A stretch of DNA of 64,000 bases from an uncultured Candidatus Binatia bacterium (GTDB lineage: Bacteria > Desulfobacterota > Binatia > Bin18). The stretch spans positions 2,304,001-2,368,000 of the forward strand of contig OZ243961.1 of NCBI GenBank assembly GCA_965214605.1, in the 5' to 3' direction. Positions 18-13,136 of this stretch are shown here, one piece after another; position 1 is the first letter of the stretch, and each line of letters begins with the position of its first letter. A model generated the notes under the pieces. The model searched no databases. It was not told where the DNA came from and saw nothing but the letters and a program-made list of their open reading frames with translations. The translations under genes and the position numbers were made by a program.

Positions 18-3000
18 GGTCTATCCCCGCGTGTACGGGGGAACCCGGCCGCTCGGGGTCCTGAAAAAACGCAGGCAAGGTCTATCCCCGCGTGTACGGG
101 GGAACCAGTGCGGGGCTCCCCTTGGCGGTGGAGGTGACGGGTCTATCCCCGCGTGTACGGGGGAACCTCCAGGATGGGATCCGAGATAGATCTGATCTGG
201 GGTCTATCCCCGCGTGTACGGGGGAACCGGATTATGCGCTGAACACGCCAGACGCTACACCGGTCTATCCCCGCGTGTACGGGGGAACCACTCAAACATA
301 GAAGCCTTCTCATGAACATCCAGGTCTATCCCCGCGTGTACGGGGGAACCTTTGTAAAGATTTTTATGAGGGGAGAAATAAACGGTCTATCCCCGCGTGT
401 ACGGGGGAACCTTGCTGGTGTCCAGGCGAATCGGTGCGCCGTCAGGTCTATCCCCGCGTGTACGGGGGAACCCGCTTCAACCCGGACCGTAAAGGGCCGG
501 AGTTGGGTCTATCCCCGCGTGTACGGGGGAACCCAATATCGACCCCCTCGGCAGTCGTGTCAAAGGGGTCTATCCCCGCGTGTACGGGGGAACCCTGGAA
601 AGTGCAGACCAAGGCAGGAACCAGGCAGGTCTATCCCCGCGTGTACGGGGGAACCTCGTGCCTGAGATAGGCCAGGATCTCGTCCCGGGGTCTATCCCCG
701 CGTGTACGGGGGAACCGGCGGCAGTGAGTTTGACCCGCGTGAGGGGGAGGGTCTATCCCCGCGTGTACGGGGGAACCCAGATGTTATCGCCTTTTGTTCC
801 TGTTCCCACGGGTCTATCCCCGCGTGTACGGGGGAACCGCCATCGCTGCGGGGCAAAACCGGGCCTTCAGCGGTCTATCCCCGCGTGTACGGGGGAACCG
901 CAAAATGACTTTCCACCTCACGGGATGGGAGCGGTCTATCCCCGCGTGTACGGGGGAACCGCCTACAACGGCCACACGCGCACTTTTCTCACGGGTCTAT
1001 CCCCGCGTGTACGGGGGAACCGGCGGGAGTTTGCGGGTTGTTTTAGGCATCTGAGGTCTATCCCCGCGTGTACGGGGGAACCAACTGCTGCTGGTCGTGA
1101 TACCGCTCATGGCAAGGTCTATCCCCGCGTGTACGGGGGAACCATATCGGTGGAGCTCCTGGAGCTTTTCATACGAGGTCTATCCCCGCGTGTACGGGGG
1201 AACCGATCCCCCTCGATTTGGATACCGAAATATCGACGGTCTATCCCCGCGTGTACGGGGGAACCTGTGTCACCACCCCGTCTTCCGGGGTCAAAATAGG
1301 TCTATCCCCGCGTGTACGGGGGAACCGTGGACCTGCGGGTCCACAGTGCCGAGCGCGGCGGTCTATCCCCGCGTGTACGGGGGAACCGTCACGGCAGGCG
1401 GCGCGGCCTACCCGGCGCGCGGTCTATCCCCGCGTGTACGGGGGAACCCGTGACCCACTCGTCGCTGTGTCCACGGATCAAGGTCTATCCCCGCGTGTAC
1501 GGGGGAACCATGTTTTTCCGCTTTTCCCCGGACCATATTTGCGGTCTATCCCCGCGTGTACGGGGGAACCTGTTTTGTCCCGGACCATATTTGCTCACGC
1601 AGGGGTCTATCCCCGCGTGTACGGGGGAACCCTTGTGTCGCAAGAGCTTAAGCAGTCTATTGCAGGTCTATCCCCGCGTGTACGGGGGAACCGTCCATGC
1701 CGTGCAAGTAATGCGGAGTCCGTAAGGTCTATCCCCGCGTGTACGGGGGAACCCTGGTGGGTGGACGTAGGGGTCTAGCGGCCTCCGGTCTATCCCCGCG
1801 TGTACGGGGGAACCGACTGGACCCCAGAGGAGAAGGCCAAGGTCCGCGGTCTATCCCCGCGTGTACGGGGGAACCCTGGACGGCCGTGGGGCTGGACGGC
1901 CGTGGGGCGGTCTATCCCCGCGTGTACGGGGGAACCCGGGCGGGGATCGTCAGCAGGAAGCTTAGTCTGGGTCTATCCCCGCGTGTACGGGGGAACCGAG
2001 GTCGCGGTGAGCGACGTCCCCTGGAGGCGGGGTCTATCCCCGCGTGTACGGGGGAACCGAAATGACCGGGCGTTGAAGGCCCGGACGTCGGGGTCTATCC
2101 CCGCGTGTACGGGGGAACCCCTCTTTGCGCCACACGTTACTCTATAAAGGCAGGTCTATCCCCGCGTGTACGGGGGAACCGCCGGCGCGGGCGGCTATAC
2201 GCCCGAGGAGGCGGGTCTATCCCCGCGTGTACGGGGGAACCTTCGCCAGGGCTTGGTTGACGAACAGCAGCGTGGGTCTATCCCCGCGTGTACGGGGGAA
2301 CCGTCGGGCGGGACGATCCCCAACTCGCGGAGGTAGGTCTATCCCCGCGTGTACGGGGGAACCCGTCTAGCTGCGTGCGGCCGGTATAGCTCAAGCGGTC
2401 TATCCCCGCGTGTACGGGGGAACCGGCACTTAGCATAGAAAACGACACGCGTCATACATCCCCGCGTGTCATAGAAGGTAGGTCTATCCCCGCGTGTACG
2501 GGGGAACCTCTGGTGTCGATATGCGCACGATTGCGAAATCGGGTCTATCCCCGCGTGTACGGGGGAACCTATATACGCTGCTCTGTCCCCCGCGTCAACC
2601 CCGGTCTATCCCCGCGTGTACGGGGGAACCTTCGGGTTGTAGAACAACGTAGTGTAATCCTTCGGTCTATCCCCGCGTGTACGGGGGAACCCGCTACCGT
2701 CCATGCGTGTCGGCCGCTAAGGGCGGTCTATCCCCGCGTGTACGGGGGAACCTTGGGTACGACGGGGCGCGTCGCCCCGTGCGTGGGTCTATCCCCGCGT
2801 GTACGGGGGAACCCGACTGGTTCCAGCGCGTCAAAGAGCGGCCCGAGGTCTATCCCCGCGTGTACGGGGGAACCCCTGTGCAAGAAAGAATGCCAAAACG
2901 ACATCAAGGTCTATCCCCGCGTGTACGGGGGAACCCCAGACAGTGGGTCTGGACACGAGGACACATGAGGTCTATCCCCGCGTGTACGGGGGAACCAGCA

Positions 3001-3667
3001 TCGGGAGGAGCTCGAGGTCGAGCCGGTCCGGTCTATCCCCGCGTGTACGGGGGAACCGATGCGTCGCCAGGATGGTACAGGACAGAAGAAGGTCTATCCC
3101 CGCGTGTACGGGGGAACCCCCGGCTCACCCTCCCGGCTCCAGCCCGGCTCCGGTCTATCCCCGCGTGTACGGGGGAACCTTGGGTTGTATGGACACCAAG
3201 TGTCAGCAAATAGGTCTATCCCCGCGTGTACGGGGGAACCCAGGAGACTCTATATATGACTCACGCTATTCAGGGTCTATCCCCGCGTGTACGGGGGAAC
3301 CCATGGAGTACATCAAGGAGCATGCATAAAATATGGTCTATCCCCGCGTGTACGGGGGAACCCGGCACTGATCCCACAGCTCTATATAAGAGAAAGGTCT
3401 ATCCCCGCGTGTACGGGGGAACCATTTTATTTGTCTTTTTTTATTCCAAAGGGTAAGGTCTATCCCCGCGTGTACGGGGGAACCATATGAGGTACATCAC
3501 ACCACATGTATAAAGTAGGTCTATCCCCGCGTGTACGGGGGAACCCTATCACGAACTTAGTGCTTTTATTTTTAAAAAGGTCTATCCCCGCGTGTACGGG
3601 GGAACCGGCGCTCTCCAGGACCGCCCCTTTCTTGGGCGGGGTCTATCCCCGCGTGTACGGGGGAACC
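18..3667 (-). CRISPR. Type I-E CRISPR array: 60 identical 28-bp repeats (+ strand GGTCTATCCCCGCGTGTACGGGGGAACC; crRNA sense GGTTCCCCCGTACACGCGGGGATAGACC), 33-nt spacers, 61-bp period; probably truncated by the window start
   Basis: Repeats start at 18, 79, 140 ... 2397, then 2481 ... 3640. The CCCCG/CGGGG hairpin and ATAGACC 5'-handle resemble the E. coli I-E repeat on the minus strand, the same strand as the cas genes. Confidence 0.99.
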
Positions 3668-3743: not shown

Positions 3744-4058
3744 CTAAGTATCCTGACGCGGGCAGATTCGTCTGGAGAGAATGATACCCTCCTGATCCAC
3801 CAACTCGACGGGAGGCGTGCCGAGGACGCGCACGGCTTGCCCACCTGGTTCATGCGAGTCCTGCCACGTCATGATGATAGATCCTCCCCCAAGCTCCAAG
3901 AACCATTCTGAGATCACCGTCCAGATTTGCTTTCGCACACGGGAGGAAAGCGTTGGAGAGGTGTATATTCCGGGAGCGATCTCAAGCATACACGAAGCAA
4001 GAAACCCGCGGATCCGCGGGGCAACATCACGAGTGACTACTACTGTCATCGTTGTCAA
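3744..4058 (-). CDS. cas2: Type I-E CRISPR-associated Cas2e
   Basis: MTVVVTRDVAPRIRGFLASCMLEIAPGIY is a typical Cas2e N-terminus; gene follows cas1. Confidence 0.95.
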   Translation of the reverse strand: MTTMTVVVTRDVAPRIRGFLASCMLEIAPGIYTSPTLSSRVRKQIWTVISEWFLELGGGSIIMTWQDSHEPGGQAVRVLGTPPVELVDQEGIILSRRICPRQDT

Positions 4059-4908
4059 TCAACTGAATGATCCGGTCAATCATCTTTGAGATGATTTTCG
4101 TCTGTCTGAATCGTCGCCCGGCCAGCCGTCTGACATGCCGTTCAAGCGGGATATGGCCGTTGGCATAATACTGGCTGACTGCCTCAAAAGCGACCGGGAT
4201 AGTGACTTCGGTTCGGTAGAGGTCTGCTATGTCCAGGCAAAAGGCGATGGAAGCGTCCTCGTGGATAAAGCCCAGCGGGGGCAAGGTTCCGGTTGCTGCT
4301 ACGGCGACAATGGCCGCGGCTTCCGTAGCAGTGGCCGCGTGGTTGATAGCCTGGTTGGGGTCGTCGGCTATTTCCGGGTGCTGACGGTCATAGCGCCGTC
4401 CGTGCCAGTCAATGCCATAGCGCTCAGCCAGCAGTTGGTAGGATTTCTTCATCCGCGCCCCTTCGATACCGCGCATGATGGTGATGTCCTGTTCGGGCAG
4501 GACCTCGCCTAAACGCCAGGCATACATTCGGCGTGCGATCCGTAGCCGCACCCGTCGGTCGTTCCAGAGTTTCGCCTGACGGCGTGCCCTTCGTGAGTCG
4601 TTCGGACCAAAGGGCTGGGCGCTGTACATGCGCACCCCATCTTCTCCAACGGCCACGAGGCCGGTTCCGTGTCGGGCCAGCAGCCGGAAAACGTCGTGGC
4701 TGACGGTCGAGCCAGGCCCGAGCAGGATGAATGAGATGTTCTGAAACGGGATAGCATAATTTCCAGCCTGCATGTCTGCAGATCCTGCGGTGCGAAAACA
4801 CAACGTCCCATCCTCTACAGTAAGATTTCCTCGCGACAGCCACAACAAGCCGTGGCGGTCAGCGTGGGGCACTCGGGCCGCCTCCAGCCCTAATCTGCCT
4901 TTCAGCAA
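4027..4908 (-). CDS. cas1: Type I-E CRISPR-associated integrase Cas1e
   Basis: LLGPGSTVSHD, RGIEGARMK, LGFIH and FCLDIADLY motifs. Confidence 0.97.
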   Translation of the reverse strand: MLKGRLGLEAARVPHADRHGLLWLSRGNLTVEDGTLCFRTAGSADMQAGNYAIPFQNISFILLGPGSTVSHDVFRLLARHGTGLVAVGEDGVRMYSAQPFGPNDSRRARRQAKLWNDRRVRLRIARRMYAWRLGEVLPEQDITIMRGIEGARMKKSYQLLAERYGIDWHGRRYDRQHPEIADDPNQAINHAATATEAAAIVAVAATGTLPPLGFIHEDASIAFCLDIADLYRTEVTIPVAFEAVSQYYANGHIPLERHVRRLAGRRFRQTKIISKMIDRIIQLIDNDDSSSHS

Positions 4909-4956: not shown

Positions 4957-5688
4957 CTAGTTAGCGGTAACGCCGGCGGGCCGCAGGAGCAGCATCCCAT
5001 ACCCATAGGCGCGGTGCCGTCCAATGCCTTGAGCCAGTAGATTGGCGAAGGCGTCAGCGTCGGTAATGATGAGCGTGCCCCGCATGATCGCGTCTGGCCC
5101 TTCGCTGTAGCGAGCGTGACGCTTGCGCAAGGCACGAGTACGCTGAAAGGAGTACAGGGTGGCGCTTTCCAGCTGGGCGCCGCCCCGTCGTCGGAACTGT
5201 TCCGTTAGCCAATCGGCATAGACCTCCTCACGGCTACGCGGCATTTCTCCCTTTAGATGCTGAACTGCTTCCGATAAAAAAATATCGCATTCCTTGCCCG
5301 GACGGCAAGTGGAGTTGCGGGAGAGGCGCACGATAGGACGCACGCGCGTTTCAAAGCCCAAGCGCTTTCCGACCTGCCACCTTGACGGCATCGGCTTGCT
5401 GTTGAGGCCAGCGGCGGGGATGATAAGGGCTTGTAGCGGGTCGGCGTAGACGCTTGCCGCCTCGCGCAGGGTCTCGGCGTCAGCGCATCCATAACCGTAG
5501 AGGACGCCGCGGGATTGAGCGCGGCCGATTATCAGGCGAAAGGGTTGGGGCGCTGGCTTGCCGAACATTTCCCTGAGAAGGCAGTGCATGGCGTGATCGC
5601 TATCCTGTAAGTCCTTTAAACCCGTCCAGCGTCGGAAGTTTCGCATGTCCATGTCGGCTCGTATCATGTGGAGTAATGCCGTAGTCAT
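4957..5688 (-). CDS. cas6e: Cas6e/Cse3 crRNA-processing endoribonuclease
   Basis: C-terminal G-loop GIGRHRAYGYGMLLL; N-terminal His (DHAMH). Confidence 0.95.
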   Translation of the reverse strand: MTTALLHMIRADMDMRNFRRWTGLKDLQDSDHAMHCLLREMFGKPAPQPFRLIIGRAQSRGVLYGYGCADAETLREAASVYADPLQALIIPAAGLNSKPMPSRWQVGKRLGFETRVRPIVRLSRNSTCRPGKECDIFLSEAVQHLKGEMPRSREEVYADWLTEQFRRRGGAQLESATLYSFQRTRALRKRHARYSEGPDAIMRGTLIITDADAFANLLAQGIGRHRAYGYGMLLLRPAGVTAN

Positions 5689-5697
5689 ACTATCTCC

Positions 5698-6417
5698 TTA
5701 CTTACCCCCTATCATCCCTTCGCACACCAGCCTCCCGCCGCCGTGCAGGCCAGAGAGCCAGTCGCGCCGGTCGGTAAGCATGTAGCTCCGACTGGGGACA
5801 ATCTCTGCTGTGCCTTCAGCGTCAGGCCATAGGAGTTGCCGGGAGGGTGGTTCATTCGACTCATCCGGCTCAGCGGCTAGTAGGGCGGCCAGGGCGGTCT
5901 CGCCGTCGCTGAAACCACCAAACAGGGGCGCTGACGGCAGGCACGATTTACGTCCGATGAACAGCGGACGCGCCGGCTCCTGCAGCGCCTCGGCCAAGTC
6001 ATCCAGTGTCGGCGCGTCCGTTGCCAATGCTAGGCGCATGGCAACGCTGACACGCATATCAGCGAAGTAGTCACGATAGCGCAGATGGGGCGCGTCATAG
6101 GTATTCGGACCGCCGGCTCGGCCTTCGGGCTGTCCGCGTGTAGTCCACGCCTTGTCGCCAGCCCCGAGTTGCGCCGTCTGAAAGTCGGTCAGACGTGCCC
6201 CGCCAGCCGGCTCCCGGTCAATGCGGACGGCGAAAACCAGCCGGTCTTGCAGGCGCTGATGCTGCTCCCGCTCAATGCGCCGCCAGCCTAAGGCATTAGC
6301 GAACAGACCCGTCAGCATGGACGCTGCTGGAAACCGGCGGATGACCCCATAATTATCGATTGCCTCGCCGCCAAAGGCCATGAGGGGGCTTTCCAGGTTC
6401 AGAATCAAGTGCCGCAT
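5698..6417 (-). CDS. cas5e: Cas5e/CasD
   Basis: LESPLMAFGG, FPAASMLTGLFANALG, RDYFAD and LFIGRKSC motifs; normal length, no HNH fusion. Confidence 0.95.
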   Translation of the reverse strand: MRHLILNLESPLMAFGGEAIDNYGVIRRFPAASMLTGLFANALGWRRIEREQHQRLQDRLVFAVRIDREPAGGARLTDFQTAQLGAGDKAWTTRGQPEGRAGGPNTYDAPHLRYRDYFADMRVSVAMRLALATDAPTLDDLAEALQEPARPLFIGRKSCLPSAPLFGGFSDGETALAALLAAEPDESNEPPSRQLLWPDAEGTAEIVPSRSYMLTDRRDWLSGLHGGGRLVCEGMIGGK

Positions 6418-6419
6418 GG

Positions 6420-7595
6420 TTAGCCACCGTTACGAACCGCGTCCGCGGCCCAGCTCGCGAGGTCGTCGAGGCAGACGCGCTTGGCGCCGGGGAGCTCGCA
6501 GTCCTCAACTGTCATGACACATCGGTTTTCCCGCGCTCCATATGCGGCGTCCAGCTTGCCCAGATGTGCGGACAGAGAAGCCGTTGCCGCTGCGATCTGG
6601 GCCTGAGCGGGAGTACGGAAGGCGTTAGCCAGGCTGCGCGGCTGGCGTGTGCCAGCCTCAATTAGCATCAGGTCGGCACAGCTATAGGGGGCGGTAGAGC
6701 CCAGCTTTGCCCCAGGCGACACCGTAGCAATAATATGAACCAGATGCTCAAGAACTTTGCCGGTCAACGTTTTGTCCGCATTCTCCCATTCGTTGGCGGC
6801 ACAGCCCTCCAGATTAGAAACCAACCCTGGTACGTCTACAACCACATAGCCGTAAAACAGCCCTGCGGTCAGTTCCATATCGCCGATGTGGGCCGCGCCA
6901 GGGTCTTCATCCTCGCTCTGAAGGTCGTCCACCACCGAGAAATAATCGCTTTCGCTCTCTTCCTGATGCACGGTGAAGGCATGGGCGACATGAATAGCAG
7001 CATCAATGTTCGCGCCGGGGTCAGAAGTCACCATCCGGCCAAACATCGCGCCTTCCAGTCCGCCGGGTAGGCGCGCCTGCTCTCGAAAAGCGCGGAAGTT
7101 GTTGCCCTCGCCTTGGCGCCCCTTGAAAAGCTCATCTGCTGCCTTTTTTGCCGCGTCGGCATTATTGGCATGTTCGGTGCAGATAGCCTCTGCCTTTTTC
7201 CGGAGATACTCCACTTCAGGCAGACCGAGTAGGAGGGGCTGTCGCGCGCTTTCGGACGTCCCACTAGACCCGTACACGCCGACGTTGAAAGCGTTTTCGA
7301 CTGCTTCAAGAACGTCGTCAGCGATGCCGCCGGCCGTGCGTAATGGCTGCATCACCTTTCGCTCAACGACATTCCGGGAGCGTACTGCTTCCTGCGCGCC
7401 GGCAATGTTACGGAGGGAGAATTCATCATCTGCCACCCGCCAGTGTCGCTTGAGACACTGGGACGATATGCGGGTCCGCACCGTGCCGCCAAAGGGCATC
7501 CGCTTAGCGAGGCCGCTGTCATCACGGTTCAGCAGTGCCGCTGGGTAGGAATGCAGGGTGTGGATCTGTAGAAAACGTGCTTTGGTCATTGTCAA
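6420..7595 (-). CDS. cas7e: Cas7e/Cse4/CasC backbone subunit
   Basis: LNRDDSGLAK, RISSQCLKRHWR, FGRM, AHAFTVH and DYFSVVDDL motifs. Confidence 0.97.
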   Translation of the reverse strand: MTMTKARFLQIHTLHSYPAALLNRDDSGLAKRMPFGGTVRTRISSQCLKRHWRVADDEFSLRNIAGAQEAVRSRNVVERKVMQPLRTAGGIADDVLEAVENAFNVGVYGSSGTSESARQPLLLGLPEVEYLRKKAEAICTEHANNADAAKKAADELFKGRQGEGNNFRAFREQARLPGGLEGAMFGRMVTSDPGANIDAAIHVAHAFTVHQEESESDYFSVVDDLQSEDEDPGAAHIGDMELTAGLFYGYVVVDVPGLVSNLEGCAANEWENADKTLTGKVLEHLVHIIATVSPGAKLGSTAPYSCADLMLIEAGTRQPRSLANAFRTPAQAQIAAATASLSAHLGKLDAAYGARENRCVMTVEDCELPGAKRVCLDDLASWAADAVRNGG

Positions 7596-7616
7596 TCTCC
7601 TTGTGCTGGTAGTGCG

Positions 7617-8540
7617 CTAGTTTGTTGATGGTTGGGAGCTGAGCCGTTCTGCCTGATAGTAGGCGCGGGCGATACGGCGGCGTGCTTCTTCAGCCTGTTC
7701 TTCGTTGTACCCATCGTTCAGAATGAAGTATGCCATTTCATGCCAGTCGAAGACTTGGTTGGCGGAGGCCAACATTCGGAACAGCCGTGCCAGCAGTACA
7801 TACAGCATCGGTCCCCGAGCCGTTAGCAGTCGGTTCAGGCGTGTCTCGCTGTAGAAGGCGGTTGTCCGCTTGGTTTCACCGCCGAGGAACAGCGCTCTCC
7901 CAATCCTGGTTTTATTATGAGCGGAGCGTCTGTCCGCGGTGCCGGTCATCAGCGCGATACCGTGCATGATGAGCGCCCATTTGCGGTCGAAGGTACGATT
8001 GTCATAGCGTGGCAGCAGCCGCCAGAAGGCTGTTGCATCGGGGGTGTCCGGGGCCATCCGTCGTAATTCAGCTAGCTCCCTGCTGGACAAGTCACCGATA
8101 TCCCGGACAAGTTCGCATACAATAGCCGTAAGGGTAGGTCGAGGAGGCAGCCAGGGAGTGCTACGGACGACCTTGGACGACGGCTCGATAATCTGTCCGG
8201 TCTTATCTGGAGGACCGTCCCTTAAGATCTTCTCAATAGAGTTCCAATCTTTAGGACGCCAAACAAAGGTGGGGACTTGATGGGCAAAATCCTCCAGAAA
8301 CTCTTTCTGCTCATTAGACAGGCCGCCGTCGTCTGTTTTGAGTTCCGCAGCGATCATTGTACGGCGTCCATTTTTGTCCCTGTAGCGCAAGATCAAATCT
8401 GGGAACCCGCGTGGAATTGGTGCTTCCTTATAAGCATAAGCGCGGTCGGGAATATGGAATGGAGACCAGCCGTGGGATTTCGCTTCGGCTTCCACGGCTC
8501 GCTGGAACTCCCATTCATTCTTGAACGTAATCTCTGACAT
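7617..8540 (-). CDS. cse2: Cse2/Cas11 with an N-terminal VRR-NUC-like (PD-(D/E)XK) nuclease domain
   Basis: Occupies the cse2 slot. The C-terminal ~170 aa have Cse2 motifs (LAELRR, FWRLL, SETRLNRLL, FDW, RRRIARAYY). The N-terminal ~110 aa have EWEFQ..V, GW..FH, GFPDL, AELK...G.LS..Q and VWRP.DW. GAGGAGG RBS upstream. Confidence 0.9.
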   Translation of the reverse strand: MSEITFKNEWEFQRAVEAEAKSHGWSPFHIPDRAYAYKEAPIPRGFPDLILRYRDKNGRRTMIAAELKTDDGGLSNEQKEFLEDFAHQVPTFVWRPKDWNSIEKILRDGPPDKTGQIIEPSSKVVRSTPWLPPRPTLTAIVCELVRDIGDLSSRELAELRRMAPDTPDATAFWRLLPRYDNRTFDRKWALIMHGIALMTGTADRRSAHNKTRIGRALFLGGETKRTTAFYSETRLNRLLTARGPMLYVLLARLFRMLASANQVFDWHEMAYFILNDGYNEEQAEEARRRIARAYYQAERLSSQPSTN

Positions 8541-8542
8541 AA

Positions 8543-10240
8543 TCACTCCTCCTCGGTGTCGAACAGAAATGGCAGCCCCTTCGGCCCGCGCAGTCGCCCC
8601 TCAAATAGTCTCTCAGCGTTGGCATGGGCGCGGTAGCGGTGAATGGCGGGGCAGGGCAGGGCAGCCGTGGCGTCGCGGAGGACGCGGCGAGCGTGATCAA
8701 CTACCCCGTCTTTGCGGTTCATCAGCCAGGCCTCTCGGATGTGCTTGCGTTCAGTGTTCTCGGCCTCAAACTCGGTCTGTAGATCGTCAAAGAACCGGAC
8801 GTCAACGATTGCGTCGAGCTTGTCTCCCCAAGGATTGGCCAACCCTCGCTGCTCAGAGCTGGTATTGTTGCCCTCACCACGAGCGGCAAATGTTGCAATG
8901 GCGTGGCGCAAAATGCGCTGGACAATAGCAATCTGAGCAATACGGTCTTTGGCAATGTCGCCCAATTCCTGAGCCAGCATCCCAGAGCGCAGCATAGCTG
9001 TTCTGGCCTTGCTCCTGATGGGGATAATGCGTTCGTGATAGCCTTCGGTTTTGCCTTGGCCCCGCACCATTGCCCGGGCGACAAGCTGCATCGTTGCTGA
9101 GGAGCGCTGTTCGGCCTGTGTTGGCTGTAGCAAGAGCGGATGTTCCCATGAGGTCAGATATTCCGTAATCCGCTTGTAGGTAAAGCCGCCGGCGGGCAGA
9201 GTCAGGGCTTTCTCTTCTTTCGGGTTGATGGGGGTCCACGGGTCGCCCAGTCTGCCTTTGTGGTCTTTCGCCTCAATGCGCTCTGCTTTGGAACTTGCCC
9301 TGACCGCGCTGAGCTTGAGCTTGCCGTCCGCCCCGAAGCACAAGCGGATACGCCGGCAAATCTCGATGTAGTGGGAGGCCAGTTGGTTCGGCAGCAACTT
9401 TTCCGTTTTGGTCCCATTCCAGGGAAGGGTCCACAGTAGGCCGATATCGCCATCGGTCGTTGAAGGACTGCTCAGCAGTATCATGATATCGCGCCGTGCG
9501 TGCGCACCCGGTCGTGTGGACGGCGTCAGTGTGAAGGCCGGTCGGCTGCCGAATCCGCCATTCATCCGCGAGATTCCGTAATTGCCGGCCCCGCTGAATC
9601 CCTGCATCGTTTGCAGAGTAATTAGCGCAAACAGCCAGGAGTCCATGCTTGCCTCAGTCGCCACGGTCGATTTGAGGTCGTGGTTCTTAGATGTGACCAG
9701 CATGTCCAGCTCGTCGGGTGTTGCGATGGGGGTCTTGTAGTCTTTGGCCTTGTCTTCTGAGGAGGTCGGTGGCTGCATGAAGGCGGGAAGGCTGAAGTCG
9801 TCCACCACCAGCTGCCAGGGCTCGTCGCCCGGAGAGTCAGGCGTCAGCCCACGGATCAAGCTAGTCCATTCTGTCGCATCTACTGGTGGTTCACTAAGAC
9901 CGGCCCGGCGTATTGCCATCGTGCCGAGTTGGACGAAAAAGGCGTGGCAGGCGTGTCGTTGGTGGGGACGTAGTACGGGAAAAGCGTCTAGTTCATCCCG
10001 CATCAACGCGGTGTAGACTTCCGGCAACGACGCCTCTCTGCCTGAGCCGCTGCCTGCCGTATCAATCCGAATCAACGGTTCTGTGAGAATGTTGAACATG
10101 GGCCTTAACCTCTCTCTCAAGTGCCTCTGGTCAGAAGCATCTCCGTGTTGTATTTCTACCCGTGTGGTCCCAAGTTGGGTCTGCAACGTCAGGGATGGGG
10201 GAGGACGGGCTGCAGCTTGAACAGCATCTGTCATAATCAT
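8543..10240 (-). CDS. cas8e: Cas8e/Cse1/CasA large subunit (conventional start probably ATG at 10099, MFNILTEPLIR)
   Basis: FNILTEPLIR, LRPHQRHA.HAF.VQL, AFMQP, KNHDLK, GNYGISRMNGG, YIEICRRIRL, GDPW.P and RGQGKTEGYHER motifs. Confidence 0.92.
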   Translation of the reverse strand: MIMTDAVQAAARPPPSLTLQTQLGTTRVEIQHGDASDQRHLRERLRPMFNILTEPLIRIDTAGSGSGREASLPEVYTALMRDELDAFPVLRPHQRHACHAFFVQLGTMAIRRAGLSEPPVDATEWTSLIRGLTPDSPGDEPWQLVVDDFSLPAFMQPPTSSEDKAKDYKTPIATPDELDMLVTSKNHDLKSTVATEASMDSWLFALITLQTMQGFSGAGNYGISRMNGGFGSRPAFTLTPSTRPGAHARRDIMILLSSPSTTDGDIGLLWTLPWNGTKTEKLLPNQLASHYIEICRRIRLCFGADGKLKLSAVRASSKAERIEAKDHKGRLGDPWTPINPKEEKALTLPAGGFTYKRITEYLTSWEHPLLLQPTQAEQRSSATMQLVARAMVRGQGKTEGYHERIIPIRSKARTAMLRSGMLAQELGDIAKDRIAQIAIVQRILRHAIATFAARGEGNNTSSEQRGLANPWGDKLDAIVDVRFFDDLQTEFEAENTERKHIREAWLMNRKDGVVDHARRVLRDATAALPCPAIHRYRAHANAERLFEGRLRGPKGLPFLFDTEEE

Positions 10241-10297
10241 TCCTCCTAGAATCTTGCGAGAATATTTTGTCGCACTATTCTCTATTTAGCAACGCAA

Positions 10298-10326
10298 AGA
10301 TTAGAGAAAGAAGTTTTATTTGTCAA
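10298..10326 (-). promoter_or_regulatory. Sigma70-type promoter of the cas8e-cas2 operon: TTGACA-N17-TAATCT
   Basis: + strand TGTCAA at 10321-10326 and AGATTA at 10298-10303, with exactly 17 bp between them, upstream of cas8e. Confidence 0.8.
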
Positions 10327-10335
10327 TCCCCATCC

Positions 10336-10424
10336 ATCCTACCCCGCAGCACGGGGATAGACCGCTTTGCGTTGCGAGGTGAACTCTCCGCGCTAAAGTT
10401 TCCCCGCAAACGCGGGGGCAGTGT
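10336..10424 (+). ncRNA. crRNA-like mini-array (degenerate repeat - 32-nt spacer - degenerate repeat); CreR/CreA-like Cas-regulating RNA
   Basis: 10336-10364 ends in CGGGGATAGACCG (array 3' half and handle). Spacer 10365-10396. 10397-10424 AGTTTCCCCGCAAACGCGGGG keeps the hairpin. The first 11 spacer nt match 10289-10299 on the minus strand, with an AAT PAM. Confidence 0.85.
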
Positions 10425-10466
10425 TCTGTTGGTGGTTTTGTCTAGGTGGCTTAGGGCTGGTGTTGC

Positions 10467-13136
10467 TCATCGTATCCGCCCTAGACCTAGGCGGCCATAG
10501 TGGAACTGTGCGTTGCCGACCTGAAAGATAAAACCGTCGTCTGTCAACTCAGGCGCGACCGGCTCTTCACTAGCTAAGTTGCGGGCCAGATGGTGGGGAA
10601 TCGTTATTTGGGAGATTGTTTCGCGGCTGAAGGGGCTGATCGGTGCCGGCTCCAACTCAACCGTTATACCCTCGTCGCCCAGCCGAGTCCGTATTTTCTC
10701 CTCCAGGGATCCAAAAATCACTTCCTGGTTGTCTACAAAAAAGGATTTATCACGCCGGACGACCGCACTCCGGGCAGTCAGACCCTCGGCAAGTTCGGTC
10801 CCCTTTAGCGTAGTAGCGTGAACCCGCCAGGCGTCTCCCAACTCTGCGGTGATGGCCTCCAGTGTCTCAATGTGGGTTGTTCGTTCGACCAGTTCTCGGT
10901 TCATCTCCGGGATGCGCCATAGACTGGCGCGCTTCGCATGATCTACAATCAGCCGCCTCGTGGCCTCCAGGACACGCAGGTCCTCATACACATGACCGTG
11001 CGGCCCCAGGCCATTCCGACCCGAACCTTTTGCCAGCAGGGGCGAGAGGTCCGTGTCGGTCGGCAGGAGCACGATGCAGATCGGTGTCTCATATCCGGCC
11101 GGCCGGTCAGGCCGTTGGTGTCGGTGTAAGCGGCCAATCCGCTGAAGCAGCACATCCATTGGGCACAGATCGGTTATGAGAAGGTCGGCGTCTATATCGA
11201 GAGATTGCTCCAGCGTCTGGGTGCCCACGACAACGCGTCCGCCGGGACGGCGGTTTTTGCCAAGCTGCTCCTCAACCGCTCTATCTAGTTGGAGACGGTC
11301 GCCAGCGGCGAACCGGCCGTGGTGGAGCGTGAAAACGTCCCCGCAGGCATACAGCAAACCACGTTCGTCGGACGGGACGCTTTTTTCCAGTGTTTGCTGG
11401 GTGTCGACCGCGTGACCGACCGTGTTGCGAATGACCAGAGCTTTTGCGCCGGCGCGGGCCGCGTGCAGGCTGCGTTCCGCGACCTGAGCGAAGTCATCCA
11501 TGGCCGCGGAGGCTTCAATTCGTACTGTTTTTTCTTTTCCATTGTGAGCGACAGCGACCATACGCTCACCGCCGTTCGCCTGGATTGTGACCGCGGGGTA
11601 GGGTGCTCTGATTGCCTCGCTGAGAGGGGGCATGTCTTGCAAACCGGCAAAATAGCGACGACGGGCCACAGAACCTAGTGTGGCCGACATCAACACCGCG
11701 TAGCCACCGGCGCTGATATGGGCGTCAAGCAGAGTCTTGAGAATACTGCTCATATAGGGGTCGGAGGCGTGTACTTCGTCCACTACCAGCAGACTGCGTG
11801 CTAGGCAGGCGGCGCGCAGATGGGCGTGTTTCACTTTGAGGGCTGCCATCATGGCCTGATCTACGGTGCCCACGGCAATTTGCGCCGCCAAGTAGCGTTT
11901 GGCGCTTTCTGCGGCCCACCGGCGTTTTTCGGTGGCGACGTCGGGATGATCGTCCCACCAGACCTCATAGTTTGGGAGATGTTTGCCTCCGGCATCTCCG
12001 GCCCGTACATAGCCGGGGACCGCTAAGACGGGCTCCGGACCGGTGTCTCTGGGAAACAGATTTGTGATGAATCGCACAACGCGCCCGTGCATCTGGCTGG
12101 CGGCCGCGCGAGTCGGTAGGGCAAAGTACAGTCCATCCACCAGTTCGGCCCGGTACATATGGGCAAAGCGCCACAAGGCAGCCTCAGTTTTGCCGGAGCC
12201 GGTTTCAGACTCGATGATGACCAGCCGCTCGTCCGTCGGGACCGCTTTTGCCGACCGCTGGATAGGATTGGGCGTTGCGTTGGGGATGCTGAACAGGTCG
12301 CCAAAATCCGGCAGGGCTGCCAGCTGGCGAAAGATCTTTCGCTGGCTTTTCAGATTCAACCCGATGTCCGAAACCGCACGGAGGGCGTTTTGTCGCGCGG
12401 TGTTGATGTAGTCGTTGCGTGACTCGGCGCAAAACGGAAAATTGCGTTCGTCAGAGCCAATCCAGTCGGCCAGCATGCATAGGCCCAGGAACATATGTTG
12501 GAAGGCAGGAGTGGATGGCAGGAGTGGCGTGTTGGACGTGAAGGCGGACGGGAACCATTGTCGCACGAGGTGGCTGATGCGCTCCACGCAGGCCTGGGGG
12601 TGTAACTCGCCAAAGGCGCGCCATGCTGAAGGGTTGGGTTGCCGCGTGTCCTCCAGTTGCAGGGGGAGGCCGTGATGCGACAGCGCAGCGATGAACAACC
12701 CGCAGACGGTCTCGCCGTCCTTATCGTCCCAGGTCAACAAATCATCCCACCAGCCCAGCGCGTCAAAAAACCAGGCGGATGTTTTTTCATCCTTGTTGTT
12801 CAGGATGGGCGTCAGATCGGCTATGTGGCCGGCGCGGGGTGGCGTTTTCTTGTACGCCGGCGCATCCGTGGGATGCCAGATGCGCGTCTGAAAGCCGACG
12901 TTGACCTTGCCGATATCGTGGAGAGCGGCAAATACTGCCAGCCGCGCCTCGGTTGCGCTGTCTATGACCTCCAGCCCGCCGGCCTGTGCCAGGCGTTGCC
13001 TGATGGTCGGCTGCGCCAGCAGTGTCTCGAAGCAGGCACCGACATCGGCCATGTGGTGCTCCAATAGATGAATGCGGCGCGGGTTGTCCCGGTCCGATTT
13101 TGCCCAGAATGCCCTGGTATATGCCGCGGCTGTCAT
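10467..13136 (-). CDS. cas3: Cas3 HD nuclease-helicase
   Basis: HLLEHH, HDIGK, SHHG and LADWIGS (HD domain); ETGSGKTE, DEVH, SAT and QRIGRLHRH (SF2 helicase). Confidence 0.97.
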   Translation of the reverse strand: MTAAAYTRAFWAKSDRDNPRRIHLLEHHMADVGACFETLLAQPTIRQRLAQAGGLEVIDSATEARLAVFAALHDIGKVNVGFQTRIWHPTDAPAYKKTPPRAGHIADLTPILNNKDEKTSAWFFDALGWWDDLLTWDDKDGETVCGLFIAALSHHGLPLQLEDTRQPNPSAWRAFGELHPQACVERISHLVRQWFPSAFTSNTPLLPSTPAFQHMFLGLCMLADWIGSDERNFPFCAESRNDYINTARQNALRAVSDIGLNLKSQRKIFRQLAALPDFGDLFSIPNATPNPIQRSAKAVPTDERLVIIESETGSGKTEAALWRFAHMYRAELVDGLYFALPTRAAASQMHGRVVRFITNLFPRDTGPEPVLAVPGYVRAGDAGGKHLPNYEVWWDDHPDVATEKRRWAAESAKRYLAAQIAVGTVDQAMMAALKVKHAHLRAACLARSLLVVDEVHASDPYMSSILKTLLDAHISAGGYAVLMSATLGSVARRRYFAGLQDMPPLSEAIRAPYPAVTIQANGGERMVAVAHNGKEKTVRIEASAAMDDFAQVAERSLHAARAGAKALVIRNTVGHAVDTQQTLEKSVPSDERGLLYACGDVFTLHHGRFAAGDRLQLDRAVEEQLGKNRRPGGRVVVGTQTLEQSLDIDADLLITDLCPMDVLLQRIGRLHRHQRPDRPAGYETPICIVLLPTDTDLSPLLAKGSGRNGLGPHGHVYEDLRVLEATRRLIVDHAKRASLWRIPEMNRELVERTTHIETLEAITAELGDAWRVHATTLKGTELAEGLTARSAVVRRDKSFFVDNQEVIFGSLEEKIRTRLGDEGITVELEPAPISPFSRETISQITIPHHLARNLASEEPVAPELTDDGFIFQVGNAQFHYGRLGLGRIR

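What the first reader, a model, noticed from the sequence alone, without database searches (positions are those of the whole stretch)
7617..8540. Type I-E Cascade with a VRR-NUC-like nuclease fused to Cse2/Cas11: candidate RNA-guided nuclease alongside an intact Cas3
Seen: the ORF in the cse2 slot is ~307 aa, versus roughly 160-200 aa for ordinary Cse2. The extra ~110 aa (about 8540-8215) read E..FQ..V...A...GW..FH, GFPDL.L, AELK...G.LS..Q..FL and VWRP.DW..I...L. A Pro-rich linker (GPPDKTGQIIEPSSKVVRSTPWLPPRP) then joins a normal Cse2, with no stop or frameshift. The extra domain looks AT-richer than the rest of the operon. Established: this motif series is the VRR-NUC PD-(D/E)XK family. Stand-alone phage/bacterial members act as dimeric junction resolvases, and FAN1 as a flap nuclease. 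I-E Cascade has two Cse2 copies that contact the displaced strand, and HNH fusions to Cas5 or Cas8 give Cascades that cut DNA directly. Inference: two tethered VRR-NUC domains could dimerise at the R-loop and cut the branched DNA, either interfering without Cas3, backing up against anti-Cas3 proteins, or producing prespacers. Cas3 HD and helicase motifs are retained here. I cannot confirm from sequence alone that this fusion is unreported.
Basis: partly seen in the sequence, partly recalled or inferred. Interest (0 to 1): 0.93.

Follow-up and report, generated by a model that had tools for sequence, protein, structure and literature searches.

The report
Nuclease-fused Cas11 in I-E CRISPR (I-E3)
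This is an intact type I-E CRISPR-Cas locus whose small Cascade subunit (Cse2/Cas11) carries a phage-type VRR-NUC nuclease at its front end, a rare variant already named I-E3 in the literature whose function nobody has tested yet.

Summary
Window 7617-8540 (- strand) is one uninterrupted 307-aa ORF: residues 1-110 are a VRR-NUC / PD-(D/E)xK nuclease domain, 111-136 a Pro-rich linker, and 137-307 a normal Cse2/Cas11. It sits in a complete I-E operon (cas3, cse1, cse2, cas7, cas5, cas6e, cas1, cas2) beside a 60-repeat array.

The fusion is not new. Altae-Tran et al. 2023 report "a VRR-NUC nuclease fused to Cas11 subunit in I-E systems". Makarova et al. 2025 name it variant I-E3 and say its role "remains to be determined".

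- The E-PD-ExK-Q residues are invariant in 80 of 80 fused homologues.
- dN/dS of the domain is 0.05-0.16.
- The domain is predicted to form the canonical VRR-NUC homodimer (score 0.60, best control 0.01).
- Cas3 lies in cis in 24 of 29 I-E3 loci, with HD motifs invariant in 21 of 21 Cas3 proteins.
- Five loci are Cascade-only. Two of these share a genome with a canonical I-E system that has an unfused Cse2.

Best reading: a Cascade-tethered, dimerising, structure-specific nuclease that adds a second cut at the R-loop beside Cas3. The mechanism is inferred, not shown. This is a new member of a known, uncharacterised variant.

The parts
8211..8540 (-). VRR-NUC (PD-(D/E)xK) nuclease domain, residues 1-110 of the fused Cse2; catalytic E9, D48, E66, K68, plus Q78
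   Evidence: Pfam VRR_NUC E 6.8e-4. hhalign to stand-alone VRR-NUC proteins gives probability 100, E 2.7e-42. [quoted passage not shown] Foldseek hits Hjc, VRR_NUC 4qbl/4qbn and FAN1 and phage VRR-NUC proteins. Catalytic residues are invariant in 80/80 and 29/29.
8133..8210 (-). Pro/Ser-rich linker, residues 111-136
   Evidence: Translation. The linker is 21-55 aa (median 26) in 80 fused homologues, 18% Pro.
7617..8132 (-). Cse2/Cas11 domain, residues 137-307, plus stop
   Evidence: Pfam CRISPR_Cse2 E 1.4e-11. TIGR02548 E 6.5e-15. Foldseek to E. coli Cascade Cse2 chains, 4tvx_J E 2e-4, TMt 0.72.
8546..8554 (-). Shine-Dalgarno-like GAGGAGGAG upstream of the ATG at 8540
   Evidence: Sequence read directly.
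8543..10240 (-). cse1/cas8e
   Evidence: Pfam CRISPR_Cse1 E 5.6e-11; TIGR02547 70.2 bits against a cut-off of 70.05.
10467..13136 (-). cas3 (HD nuclease + helicase)
   Evidence: Cas3_HD E 3.4e-31, DEAD, Cas3-like_C_2. HD-motif residues H73 D74 K77 H104 H154 H155 D224 are invariant in 21/21 Cas3 proteins of I-E3 loci.
6420..7595 (-). cas7/cse4
   Evidence: Pfam Cas_CT1975 E 9.3e-97; TIGR01869.
5698..6417 (-). cas5e
   Evidence: TIGR01868 E 4e-54.
4957..5688 (-). cas6e/cse3
   Evidence: Pfam CRISPR_assoc E 5.3e-28; TIGR01907.
4027..4908 (-). cas1e
   Evidence: TIGR03638 E 4e-87.
3744..4058 (-). cas2e
   Evidence: TIGR01873 E 1.9e-23.
18..3667 (-). CRISPR array, 60 repeats (GGTTCCCCCGTACACGCGGGGATAGACC), 61-bp period, 59 spacers; it may continue beyond the window start
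   Evidence: TRF; own script.

Best explanation
The locus is an intact member of the type I-E3 CRISPR-Cas variant. Its Cas11/Cse2 small subunit has an N-terminal VRR-NUC nuclease domain joined by a ~26-aa Pro-rich linker. The nuclease is of the E-PD-ExK + Q type, the phage/bacterial Holliday-junction-resolvase-like branch of PD-(D/E)xK.

Shown here: the domain identity, the intact and strongly conserved active site, purifying selection on the domain, and coexistence with an intact Cas3.

Inferred mechanism:
1. I-E Cascade carries two Cse2 copies (established for the E. coli and T. fusca complexes; recalled).
2. Each Cascade would therefore carry two VRR-NUC domains, which pair into one canonical VRR-NUC homodimer.
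3. When the crRNA forms an R-loop, this tethered, structure-specific dimer cuts DNA at or near the R-loop branch points (displaced strand or fork).
4. That gives a second, Cas3-independent cut that accompanies Cas3 degradation in complete loci such as this one. It may be the only cut in the Cascade-only I-E3 loci.

Confidence is about 0.95 for identity as I-E3 with an active-looking nuclease, and about 0.4 for the R-loop-cutting dimer mechanism.
For: Identity:
- Pfam and NCBIfam annotate a full I-E operon next to a 60-repeat array.
- The N-domain profile aligns to stand-alone small proteins with hhalign probability 100, E 2.7e-42. Of those 60 proteins, 57 match Pfam VRR_NUC at E<=0.01.
- 43 of 80 fused homologues hit VRR_NUC directly at E<=0.01.
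- The AF2 N-domain model (pLDDT 87.9) matches Hjc 2wiw_B (E 6e-4), VRR_NUC 4qbl_B (TM 0.60/0.62), 4qbn_A and FAN1. It also has 30 viral matches at E<=1e-3, mostly phage VRR-NUC proteins.

Active site: W25 G45 P47 D48 E66 K68 Q78 are invariant in 80/80 and E9 is conserved in >=90%. The same residues are invariant in 29/29 genome-derived copies. This is the E-PD-ExK + Q site described for solved VRR-NUC proteins (Pennell 2014, section 9).

Selection: dN/dS of the N-domain is 0.045-0.155 in 7 close pairs.

Dimer:
- ipSAE is 0.60 (runs 0.62, 0.60, 0.57) against a best control of 0.01. Contacts agree in >=96% and partner pLDDT is >=86. The mark was reached by 20 of 30 solved homodimers and 1 of 23 solved single chains.
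- The interface (beta1 26-31, beta2 52/54, beta3 60/62, alpha2 81-89) is the beta-sheet plus alpha2 interface of the solved dimers.
- Its core residues are conserved: F28 in 75/80, H29 in 72/80, F46 in 73/80, position 81 aromatic in 80/80.
- One homologue (P0123, 459 aa) has two tandem VRR-NUC copies, the second with its PD and ExK residues lost. That is the pattern of a pseudo-dimer.
- Linkers are 21-55 aa.

Relation to Cas3:
- Cas3 is adjacent in 22 of 27 genome loci and in the window. One further locus has cas3 about 14 kb away.
- HD residues are invariant in 21/21 Cas3 proteins.

Cas3-less form:
- Five loci (L013, L017, L020, L024, G014/L030) have only cse1, the fused cse2, cas7, cas5 and cas6e.
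- Their N-domain active sites are intact, with dN/dS 0.115-0.155.

Substrates of relatives: stand-alone VRR-NUC dimers cleave four-way junctions and, to a lesser degree, forks (Pennell 2014, section 10). A T6SS VRR-Nuc effector prefers splayed arms (Hespanhol 2022, passages).
Against: - No activity has been measured for any I-E3 system. No paper with experiments was found.
- The window protein's own Pfam VRR_NUC score (20.1 bits) is below the curated cut-off (23.8).
- A PDB sequence-profile search gave only a non-significant VRR-NUC match, 4qbl_A at E 0.57.
- The dimer pass may come from likeness to solved VRR-NUC/Hjc dimers, and it was computed on isolated domains, not in Cascade.
- The full-length AF2 model has an ordered linker (pLDDT 77-93 over 111-140, pTM 0.78). 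This could mean the domain is docked on Cse2 rather than free to pair.
- The domain is interleaved with unfused forms on the Cse2 tree: 7 changes, at least 2 forced, with fused P0002 sister to unfused P0069. It is therefore dispensable for Cascade.
- Cas3 with an intact HD is kept in most loci, so an extra cut is not obviously needed.
- At least one Cascade-only locus looks damaged (cas7 frameshift in G014/L030). These loci may be decaying rather than autonomous.
Confidence: 0.5

Rival explanations
1. Adaptation helper. The tethered PD-(D/E)xK nuclease acts like Cas4, which I-E systems lack. It would trim Cas3 degradation products or R-loop DNA into prespacers for Cas1-Cas2 (primed adaptation).
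For: cas1 and cas2 are present in the window and in 23 of 27 genome loci. The window array is long (59 spacers), and its leader-proximal spacers 2-8 have a distinct low GC, suggesting recent acquisition. Cas4 is also a PD-(D/E)xK nuclease (recalled).
Against: The fusion keeps an intact active site and low dN/dS in loci without cas1/cas2: L013, L017 and L020, with no Cas1e found in G014, G042 or G043. The domain has no cysteines, so it lacks the Cas4-type Fe-S cluster, and there is no Cas4 Pfam hit. It is fused to an interference subunit, not to Cas1 or Cas2.
Confidence: 0.15
2. Cas3 replacement. As in HNH-Cascades (I-E2, I-F4), the fused nuclease is the sole effector nuclease and Cas3 is on its way out.
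For: Five of 29 I-E3 loci lack cas3 in cis. Makarova 2025 writes that only 'some' I-E3 systems contain Cas3.
Against: In the window, Cas3 is full-length with all domains. Cas3 lies in cis in 24 of 29 loci, and HD-motif residues are invariant in 21/21. This is unlike the HNH variants, which typically lack Cas3.
Confidence: 0.1
3. Target-activated collateral or abortive nuclease. R-loop formation licenses the dimer to cut branched host or phage DNA (replication forks, recombination intermediates) non-specifically.
For: Stand-alone VRR-NUC proteins are structure-specific, not sequence-specific, and show some non-specific ladders in vitro. A T6SS VRR-Nuc effector is toxic by cutting splayed arms. 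Collateral activity was reported for Cas8-HNH.
Against: There is no evidence of an immunity or regulatory partner in the loci. The neighbours of Cascade-only loci are housekeeping genes. Tethering by a 21-55 aa linker limits reach.
Confidence: 0.1
4. Non-catalytic module. The domain only binds branched DNA, stabilising or locking the R-loop or recruiting Cas3, without cutting.
For: The second copy in P0123 has lost its catalytic residues yet is retained. Cse2 normally works by contacting the displaced strand (recalled).
Against: E-PD-ExK-Q is invariant in 80/80 and 29/29 copies. That would not be expected for a pure binding module.
Confidence: 0.08
5. Artefact: a misassembled or frameshifted junction joining a separate small nuclease gene to cse2.
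For: None found.
Against: There is no stop in 307 codons. Independent contigs span the junction with 0 differences. 101 of the 120 best homologues and 27 genome loci have the same fusion.
Confidence: 0.01

Closest known systems
Type I-E3 CRISPR-Cas variant (Altae-Tran et al. 2023, Science, PMC10910872; named in Makarova et al. 2025, Nat Microbiol, PMC12669027)
   Same: An I-E operon with a PD-(D/E)xK / VRR-NUC nuclease fused to Cas11/Cse2. Some systems keep Cas3 with an apparently active HD. The window fits this exactly.
   Different: Nothing distinguishes the window from the description. The papers give one or two sentences and no experiments (passages read only; supplements closed). The counts, dimer prediction, Cascade-only subset and tandem form reported here were not in the passages I saw.
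Stand-alone phage/bacterial VRR-NUC proteins (Pfam PF08774; PDB 4qbl, 4qbn; Pennell et al. 2014)
   Same: [quoted passage not shown]
   Different: Here the domain is covalently tethered to a Cascade subunit, so its substrate would be chosen by a crRNA. The window's own Pfam score is sub-threshold.
HNH-Cascades: I-E2 (Cas5-HNH) and I-F4 (Cas8-HNH)
   Same: A small mobile-element-type nuclease fused to a Cascade subunit of a type I system. A minority of I-E3 loci also lack cas3.
   Different: The nuclease fold differs (HNH against PD-(D/E)xK) and so does the carrier subunit (Cas5/Cas8 against Cas11, which is present in two copies). HNH variants typically lack Cas3, while I-E3 keeps it in 24 of 29 loci examined here. 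HNH-Cascade activity is demonstrated; I-E3 activity is not.
FAN1 and T6SS TseV VRR-Nuc effectors
   Same: A VRR-NUC catalytic core embedded in a larger protein that directs it to particular DNA structures.
   Different: FAN1 is monomeric because of an insertion that blocks the dimer interface (abstract). The I-E3 domain is minimal and is predicted to dimerise.

Membership tests
Type I-E CRISPR-Cas | Gene set cas3, cse1/cas8e, cse2/cas11, cas7e, cas5e, cas6e, cas1e, cas2e in one operon | tested here: met
   All eight match their Pfam and NCBIfam models, in order on the - strand from 13136 to 3744.
Type I-E CRISPR-Cas | Adjacent CRISPR array with ~28-29 nt I-E type repeats and ~32-33 nt spacers | tested here: met
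   60 repeats with a 61-bp period, repeat ending GCGGGGATAGACC, spacers of 32-33 nt.
I-E3 variant | PD-(D/E)xK family nuclease fused to Cas11 in an I-E system | tested here: met
   One ORF with VRR-NUC at 1-110 and Cse2 at 137-307. Definition taken from a passage of PMC12669027.
VRR-NUC (Pfam PF08774) | Match to the family HMM above the curated cut-off | tested here: inconclusive
   The window protein scores 20.1 bits against a cut-off of 23.8, E 6.8e-4. 43 of 80 fused homologues match at E<=0.01. Homologue P0123 reaches 23.9 bits. Profile-profile comparison to stand-alone proteins, 57 of 60 of which match VRR_NUC, gives probability 100, E 2.7e-42.
VRR-NUC (Pfam PF08774) | [quoted passage not shown] | tested here: met
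   AF2 secondary-structure order H9-22, E26-28, E49-54, E60-67, H76-86, E91-94, H96-108. Foldseek hits Hjc, 4qbl, 4qbn and FAN1 and phage VRR-NUC proteins. Topology as in Pennell 2014, section 9.
VRR-NUC (Pfam PF08774) | E-PD-ExK catalytic motif plus the family-specific conserved Gln | tested here: met
   E9, P47-D48, E66-L67-K68 and Q78 are invariant or >=90% conserved in 80 fused proteins and in 29 genome copies.
VRR-NUC (Pfam PF08774) | Homodimer through the central beta-sheet and helix alpha2 (stand-alone members) | tested here: inconclusive
   Prediction only: ipSAE 0.60 against a best control of 0.01, with the same interface elements. It may reflect likeness to solved dimers and was not tested in Cascade.
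VRR-NUC (Pfam PF08774) | Metal-dependent structure-specific DNA cleavage | not testable with these tools
   Needs biochemistry.
HNH-Cascade type (I-E2/I-F4): nuclease replaces Cas3 | Typical absence of cas3 | tested here: not met
   The window has an intact cas3. Cas3 lies in cis in 24 of 29 I-E3 loci.
Cas4 | RecB-like PD-(D/E)xK domain with a four-Cys Fe-S cluster | tested here: not met
   There are no cysteines in residues 1-110 and no Cas4 family hit in Pfam or NCBIfam.

The most novel reading that the evidence does not exclude
I-E3 Cascade is a self-sufficient RNA-guided, structure-specific endonuclease. The two Cas11-borne VRR-NUC domains form one resolvase-like dimer that is licensed by R-loop formation and cuts the target without Cas3.

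In complete loci such as this one, that would give a second line of interference, for example when Cas3 is blocked. In the Cascade-only loci it would be the only nuclease, and the complex would be loaded with crRNAs from a co-resident canonical I-E array. The repeat of the L017 mini-array is identical to that of the canonical I-E array in the sister genome G044.
Probability: 0.3. Interest if true: 0.8.

Novelty: new member of a known kind. Interest (0 to 1): 0.5.

Why it matters
The 2025 CRISPR-Cas classification states that the role of the I-E3 nuclease is undetermined. An intact, apparently active locus gives a concrete system in which to test it. This one has a full operon, a 59-spacer array and compositionally distinct leader-end spacers.

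If the tethered VRR-NUC dimer cuts at R-loops, it would be the first resolvase-type nuclease shown to be guided by a crRNA. It would also be a second route, besides HNH, to a type I effector that makes defined cuts rather than Cas3-type long-range degradation. That is relevant both to phage counter-defence and to genome-editing tools. If it does not cut, the strict conservation of the active site still needs an explanation.

Tried and rejected
- PDB sequence-profile search with the 80-protein alignment gave no significant hit. The top rows were glucocorticoid receptor and xylanase at E 0.08-0.3, and VRR-NUC 4qbl_A at E 0.57. The fold search was needed instead.
- The full-length model's fold search was dominated by Cse2 chains, so the N-domain was folded and searched alone.
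- The 'AT-richer, hence recently acquired' idea was rejected as weak. The dip is 0.52-0.54 GC, and equal dips occur elsewhere in the operon.
- Transposon (CAST-like) or other accessory genes next to Cascade-only loci: none found. Of 10 neighbouring ORFs scanned, 6 matched housekeeping families (phosphotriesterase x2, luciferase-like monooxygenase, HlyD-like, VWA, NAD-dependent DNA ligase) and 4 had no Pfam match.
- RNA evidence of expression: no RNA holder was listed among the sequencing runs. This says nothing either way.
- Parts of the stretch had no contig cover in runs X6 and X7. No conclusion is drawn from that.
- An internal translation start giving a separate short Cse2 was considered. 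No conserved Met is present in the linker, and this was not pursued further.
- Supplementary files of Altae-Tran 2023 (Data S2) and Makarova 2025 could not be opened. They may list this locus, counts of I-E3 loci or Cas3 presence.
That step of the mechanism rests on recall.
Full report
**What is there.** On the minus strand the window carries a complete type I-E operon:
- cas3 (10467-13136)
- cse1 (8543-10240)
- the gene in question (7617-8540)
- cas7 (6420-7595)
- cas5 (5698-6417)
- cas6e (4957-5688)
- cas1 (4027-4908)
- cas2 (3744-4058)

Each gene matches its Pfam and NCBIfam model. Downstream lies a CRISPR array of 60 repeats with a 61-bp period, spanning about 18-3667.

The gene in the cse2 slot is one open frame of 307 codons from the ATG at 8540. 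That ATG is preceded by GAGGAGGAG and by the cse1 stop codon. Pfam places CRISPR_Cse2 at residues 155-295 and gives a sub-threshold VRR_NUC match at 44-88 (20.1 bits, cut-off 23.8, E 6.8e-4).

**Is the fusion real?** Yes, on three grounds:
- In a search of 5.8 billion proteins, 772 scored E<=1e-3 and the best 120 were listed. An HMM of the N-domain finds it in 101 of those 120. The 19 without it are 194-208 aa ordinary Cse2 proteins.
- A scan of one genome per species returned 27 loci with the N-domain in front of Cse2. They are mostly Dehalococcoidia/SAR202, Caldilineaceae, Binatia, Entotheonella and Thermodesulfobacteriota MAGs.
- Contigs from two runs of a study other than the possible source cover 7400-8660 with no difference.

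**What the N-domain is.**
- Sequence: an alignment of N-domains from the window and 28 loci (A4) compared with 60 stand-alone 95-130-aa proteins (A5) gives hhalign probability 100 and E 2.7e-42 over 99 columns. The A5 proteins were retrieved by the A4 profile at E about 1e-17 to 1e-13. Of those 60, 57 match Pfam VRR_NUC at E<=0.01 (best 1.4e-10) and 6 also match Hjc.
- Direct Pfam matches: 43 of 80 fused proteins hit VRR_NUC at E<=0.01.
- Phage families: the window domain hits PHROG phrog_93 'endonuclease' (E 2.9e-7) and phrog_5702 'Holliday junction resolvase' (E 6e-4).
[quoted passage not shown] It matches Hjc resolvases (2wiw_B, E 6e-4), VRR_NUC structures 4qbl (TM 0.60/0.62) and 4qbn (TMt 0.73), SPARDA and FAN1 nuclease domains. 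There are also 30 viral models at E<=1e-3, mostly annotated as phage VRR-NUC proteins.
- A PDB sequence-profile search alone was not significant.
- The C-terminal half superposes on Cse2 chains of E. coli Cascade (4tvx_J, E 2e-4, TMt 0.72).

**Is the nuclease likely active?**
- In 80 fused proteins, W25, G45, P47, D48, E66, K68 and Q78 are invariant and E9 is >=90% conserved. The same holds in 29 genome-derived copies.
- This is the E-PD-ExK site with the VRR-NUC-specific Gln described for the solved proteins (Pennell 2014, section 9).
- Pairwise dN/dS of the N-domain in seven close pairs is 0.045-0.155.

**Dimerisation.** Stand-alone VRR-NUC proteins are dimers in solution. They pair through the central beta-sheet and helix alpha2, and they cleave four-way junctions and, more weakly, forks (Pennell 2014, abstract and sections 9-10).
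- Two copies of the I-E3 domain scored ipSAE 0.60 (runs 0.62, 0.60, 0.57) against a best control of 0.01. Contacts agreed in >=96% and pLDDT was >=86. The tool's calibration is 20 of 30 solved homodimers and 1 of 23 single chains reaching the mark.
- The interface uses beta1, beta2, beta3 and alpha2, as in the crystal dimers. The pass may therefore be from likeness to solved structures.
- The interface core is conserved: F28 in 75/80, H29 in 72/80, F46 in 73/80, position 81 aromatic in 80/80.
- Linkers are 21-55 aa, median 26, and 18% proline.
- One representative, P0123 (459 aa), has two VRR-NUC copies in tandem before Cse2. The first has an intact GFPDL/AELK/Q. The second reads DFPRW/ASLRR, so its catalytic residues are lost. 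That pattern is expected if the domain works as a dimer.
- Against free pairing: in the full-length model the linker is confidently placed (pLDDT 77-93, pTM 0.78).

**Relation to Cas3 and the adaptation genes.**
- Among the 27 genome loci, tblastn with the window's proteins finds cas3 next to cse1 in 22 (two cut by a contig end) and cas1/cas2 in 23. A CRISPR array is present in 23.
- Across the window plus 20 full-length Cas3 proteins, the HD residues (H73 D74 K77 H104 H154 H155 D224, among others) are invariant in 21 of 21.
- Of the five loci without adjacent cas3:
  - L012 has cas3 about 14 kb upstream on the same chromosome.
  - L020 (G044) and L024 (G045) each share a genome with a second, canonical I-E locus that has cas3 and an unfused cse2. 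In G044 that locus also has cas1, cas2 and a 65-repeat array.
  - L013 (G042, a complete chromosome) has no I-E cas3 or cas1, only a distant Cas3_HD protein elsewhere.
  - L017 (G043, 3.0 Mb MAG) has neither with these queries.
- A relative in the window's own family (G014) is also Cascade-only. It has a 5-repeat array and a frameshift in cas7.
- In total, 24 of 29 I-E3 loci have cas3 in cis and 5 are Cascade-only.
- The Cascade-only copies keep the active site, with dN/dS 0.115-0.155.
- The mini-array repeat of L017 is identical to the repeat of the canonical array in sister genome G044.
- Neighbours of the Cascade-only loci are housekeeping genes or have no Pfam match.

**Evolution.**
- On a tree of the Cse2 domain of the 120 best hits, fused and unfused forms need 7 changes. 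At least 2 are forced by well-supported branches, and 0 of 500 label shuffles were as low.
- Fused P0002 and unfused P0069 are sisters (SH-aLRT 99). The window's Cse2 domain is most similar to unfused P0069 (72%).
- The window's cas1 is 89% identical to those of L023, L025, L026 and L028, whose N-domains are only 35-38% identical to the window's. The closest N-domain (53%) is in L003, whose cas1 is 60% identical.
- The module is therefore gained, lost or exchanged often, and is accessory to Cascade.
- Among 41 relatives of the window's genome, 7 have a Cse2 and 2 of those have the fused form.

**Comparison with what is known.**
- Altae-Tran et al. [quoted passage not shown]
- Makarova et al. 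[quoted passage not shown]
- Six full-text searches (VRR-NUC with Cse2, with Cas11, and with Cascade plus type I-E; 'fused to Cas11'; I-E3; Cas3-independent/resolvase terms) found no experimental study. Supplements were closed.
- The window is therefore a new member of a known, named but uncharacterised variant.

**Most likely mechanism** (inferred). Two Cse2 per Cascade (recalled from E. coli and T. fusca structures) bring two VRR-NUC domains, which form one resolvase-like dimer. R-loop formation presents fork-like branch points and a displaced strand next to the Cse2 pair, and the dimer cuts there. In complete loci this accompanies Cas3. In Cascade-only loci it may be the sole cut, possibly using crRNAs from a co-resident I-E array. 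I put about 0.4 on this mechanism. The rivals and their weights are:
- adaptation helper, 0.15
- Cas3 replacement, 0.1
- collateral nuclease, 0.1
- non-catalytic binder, 0.08
- artefact, 0.01

None of these can be separated further without biochemistry.

**Verdict.** Novelty is limited, because the variant is already published as I-E3. The function remains open and testable. Interest 0.5.

Noticed in passing
window about 3180-3580 (spacers 2-8 from the cas2/leader end): The leader-proximal spacers 2-8 are AT-rich (GC 0.21-0.44; mean of spacers 1-8 is 0.39), while the remaining 51 spacers average 0.60 GC. This suggests a recent run of acquisitions from a low-GC invader and an active adaptation module.
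   Followed up: partly
protein P0123 (459 aa): A Cse2 fusion with two tandem VRR-NUC copies. The first has an intact PD/ExK/Q. The second reads DFPRW/ASLRR, so its catalytic residues are lost. It looks like a covalent pseudo-dimer with one active site.
   Followed up: partly
L020 and L032 (genome G044); L024 and L033 (genome G045): Two genomes each hold two I-E loci. One is a Cascade-only I-E3 operon without cas3, cas1 or cas2. The other is a canonical I-E locus with cas3 and an unfused cse2; in G044 it also has cas1, cas2 and a 65-repeat array. The mini-array repeat of sister locus L017 is identical to the G044 canonical repeat.
   Followed up: partly
L030 (G014:C1) about 17089: In this Cascade-only I-E3 locus, from a genome of the window's own family, cas7 is split into two frames at one point. 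This is either a frameshift or an assembly error.
   Followed up: no
window 8128 (linker/Cse2 boundary), run X6: One low-depth metagenome contig matches 8128-8311 exactly. It then continues for 129 letters unlike the window, exactly where the Cse2 domain begins (table 7). This may be a strain with a different Cse2 part or a chimeric contig.
   Followed up: no
window operon compared with L003 and L023/L025/L026/L028: The operon is mosaic. Its cas1 is 89% and cas3 68-70% identical to the Binatia/Thermodesulfobacteriota-type loci, yet its VRR-NUC domain is only 35-38% identical to theirs and 53% to a Dehalococcoidia locus.
   Followed up: partly
proteins P0002 (fused, 312 aa) and P0069 (unfused, 198 aa): Their Cse2 domains are nearly identical and are sisters on the tree (SH-aLRT 99), although one has the nuclease and the other a short unrelated N-terminus. 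This points to a very recent gain, loss or swap of the 5' part of cse2.
   Followed up: partly
window 10241-10466: The 226-bp cas3-cse1 intergenic gap has the lowest GC of the operon (about 0.50). It may hold the Cascade operon promoter. Not examined.
   Followed up: no
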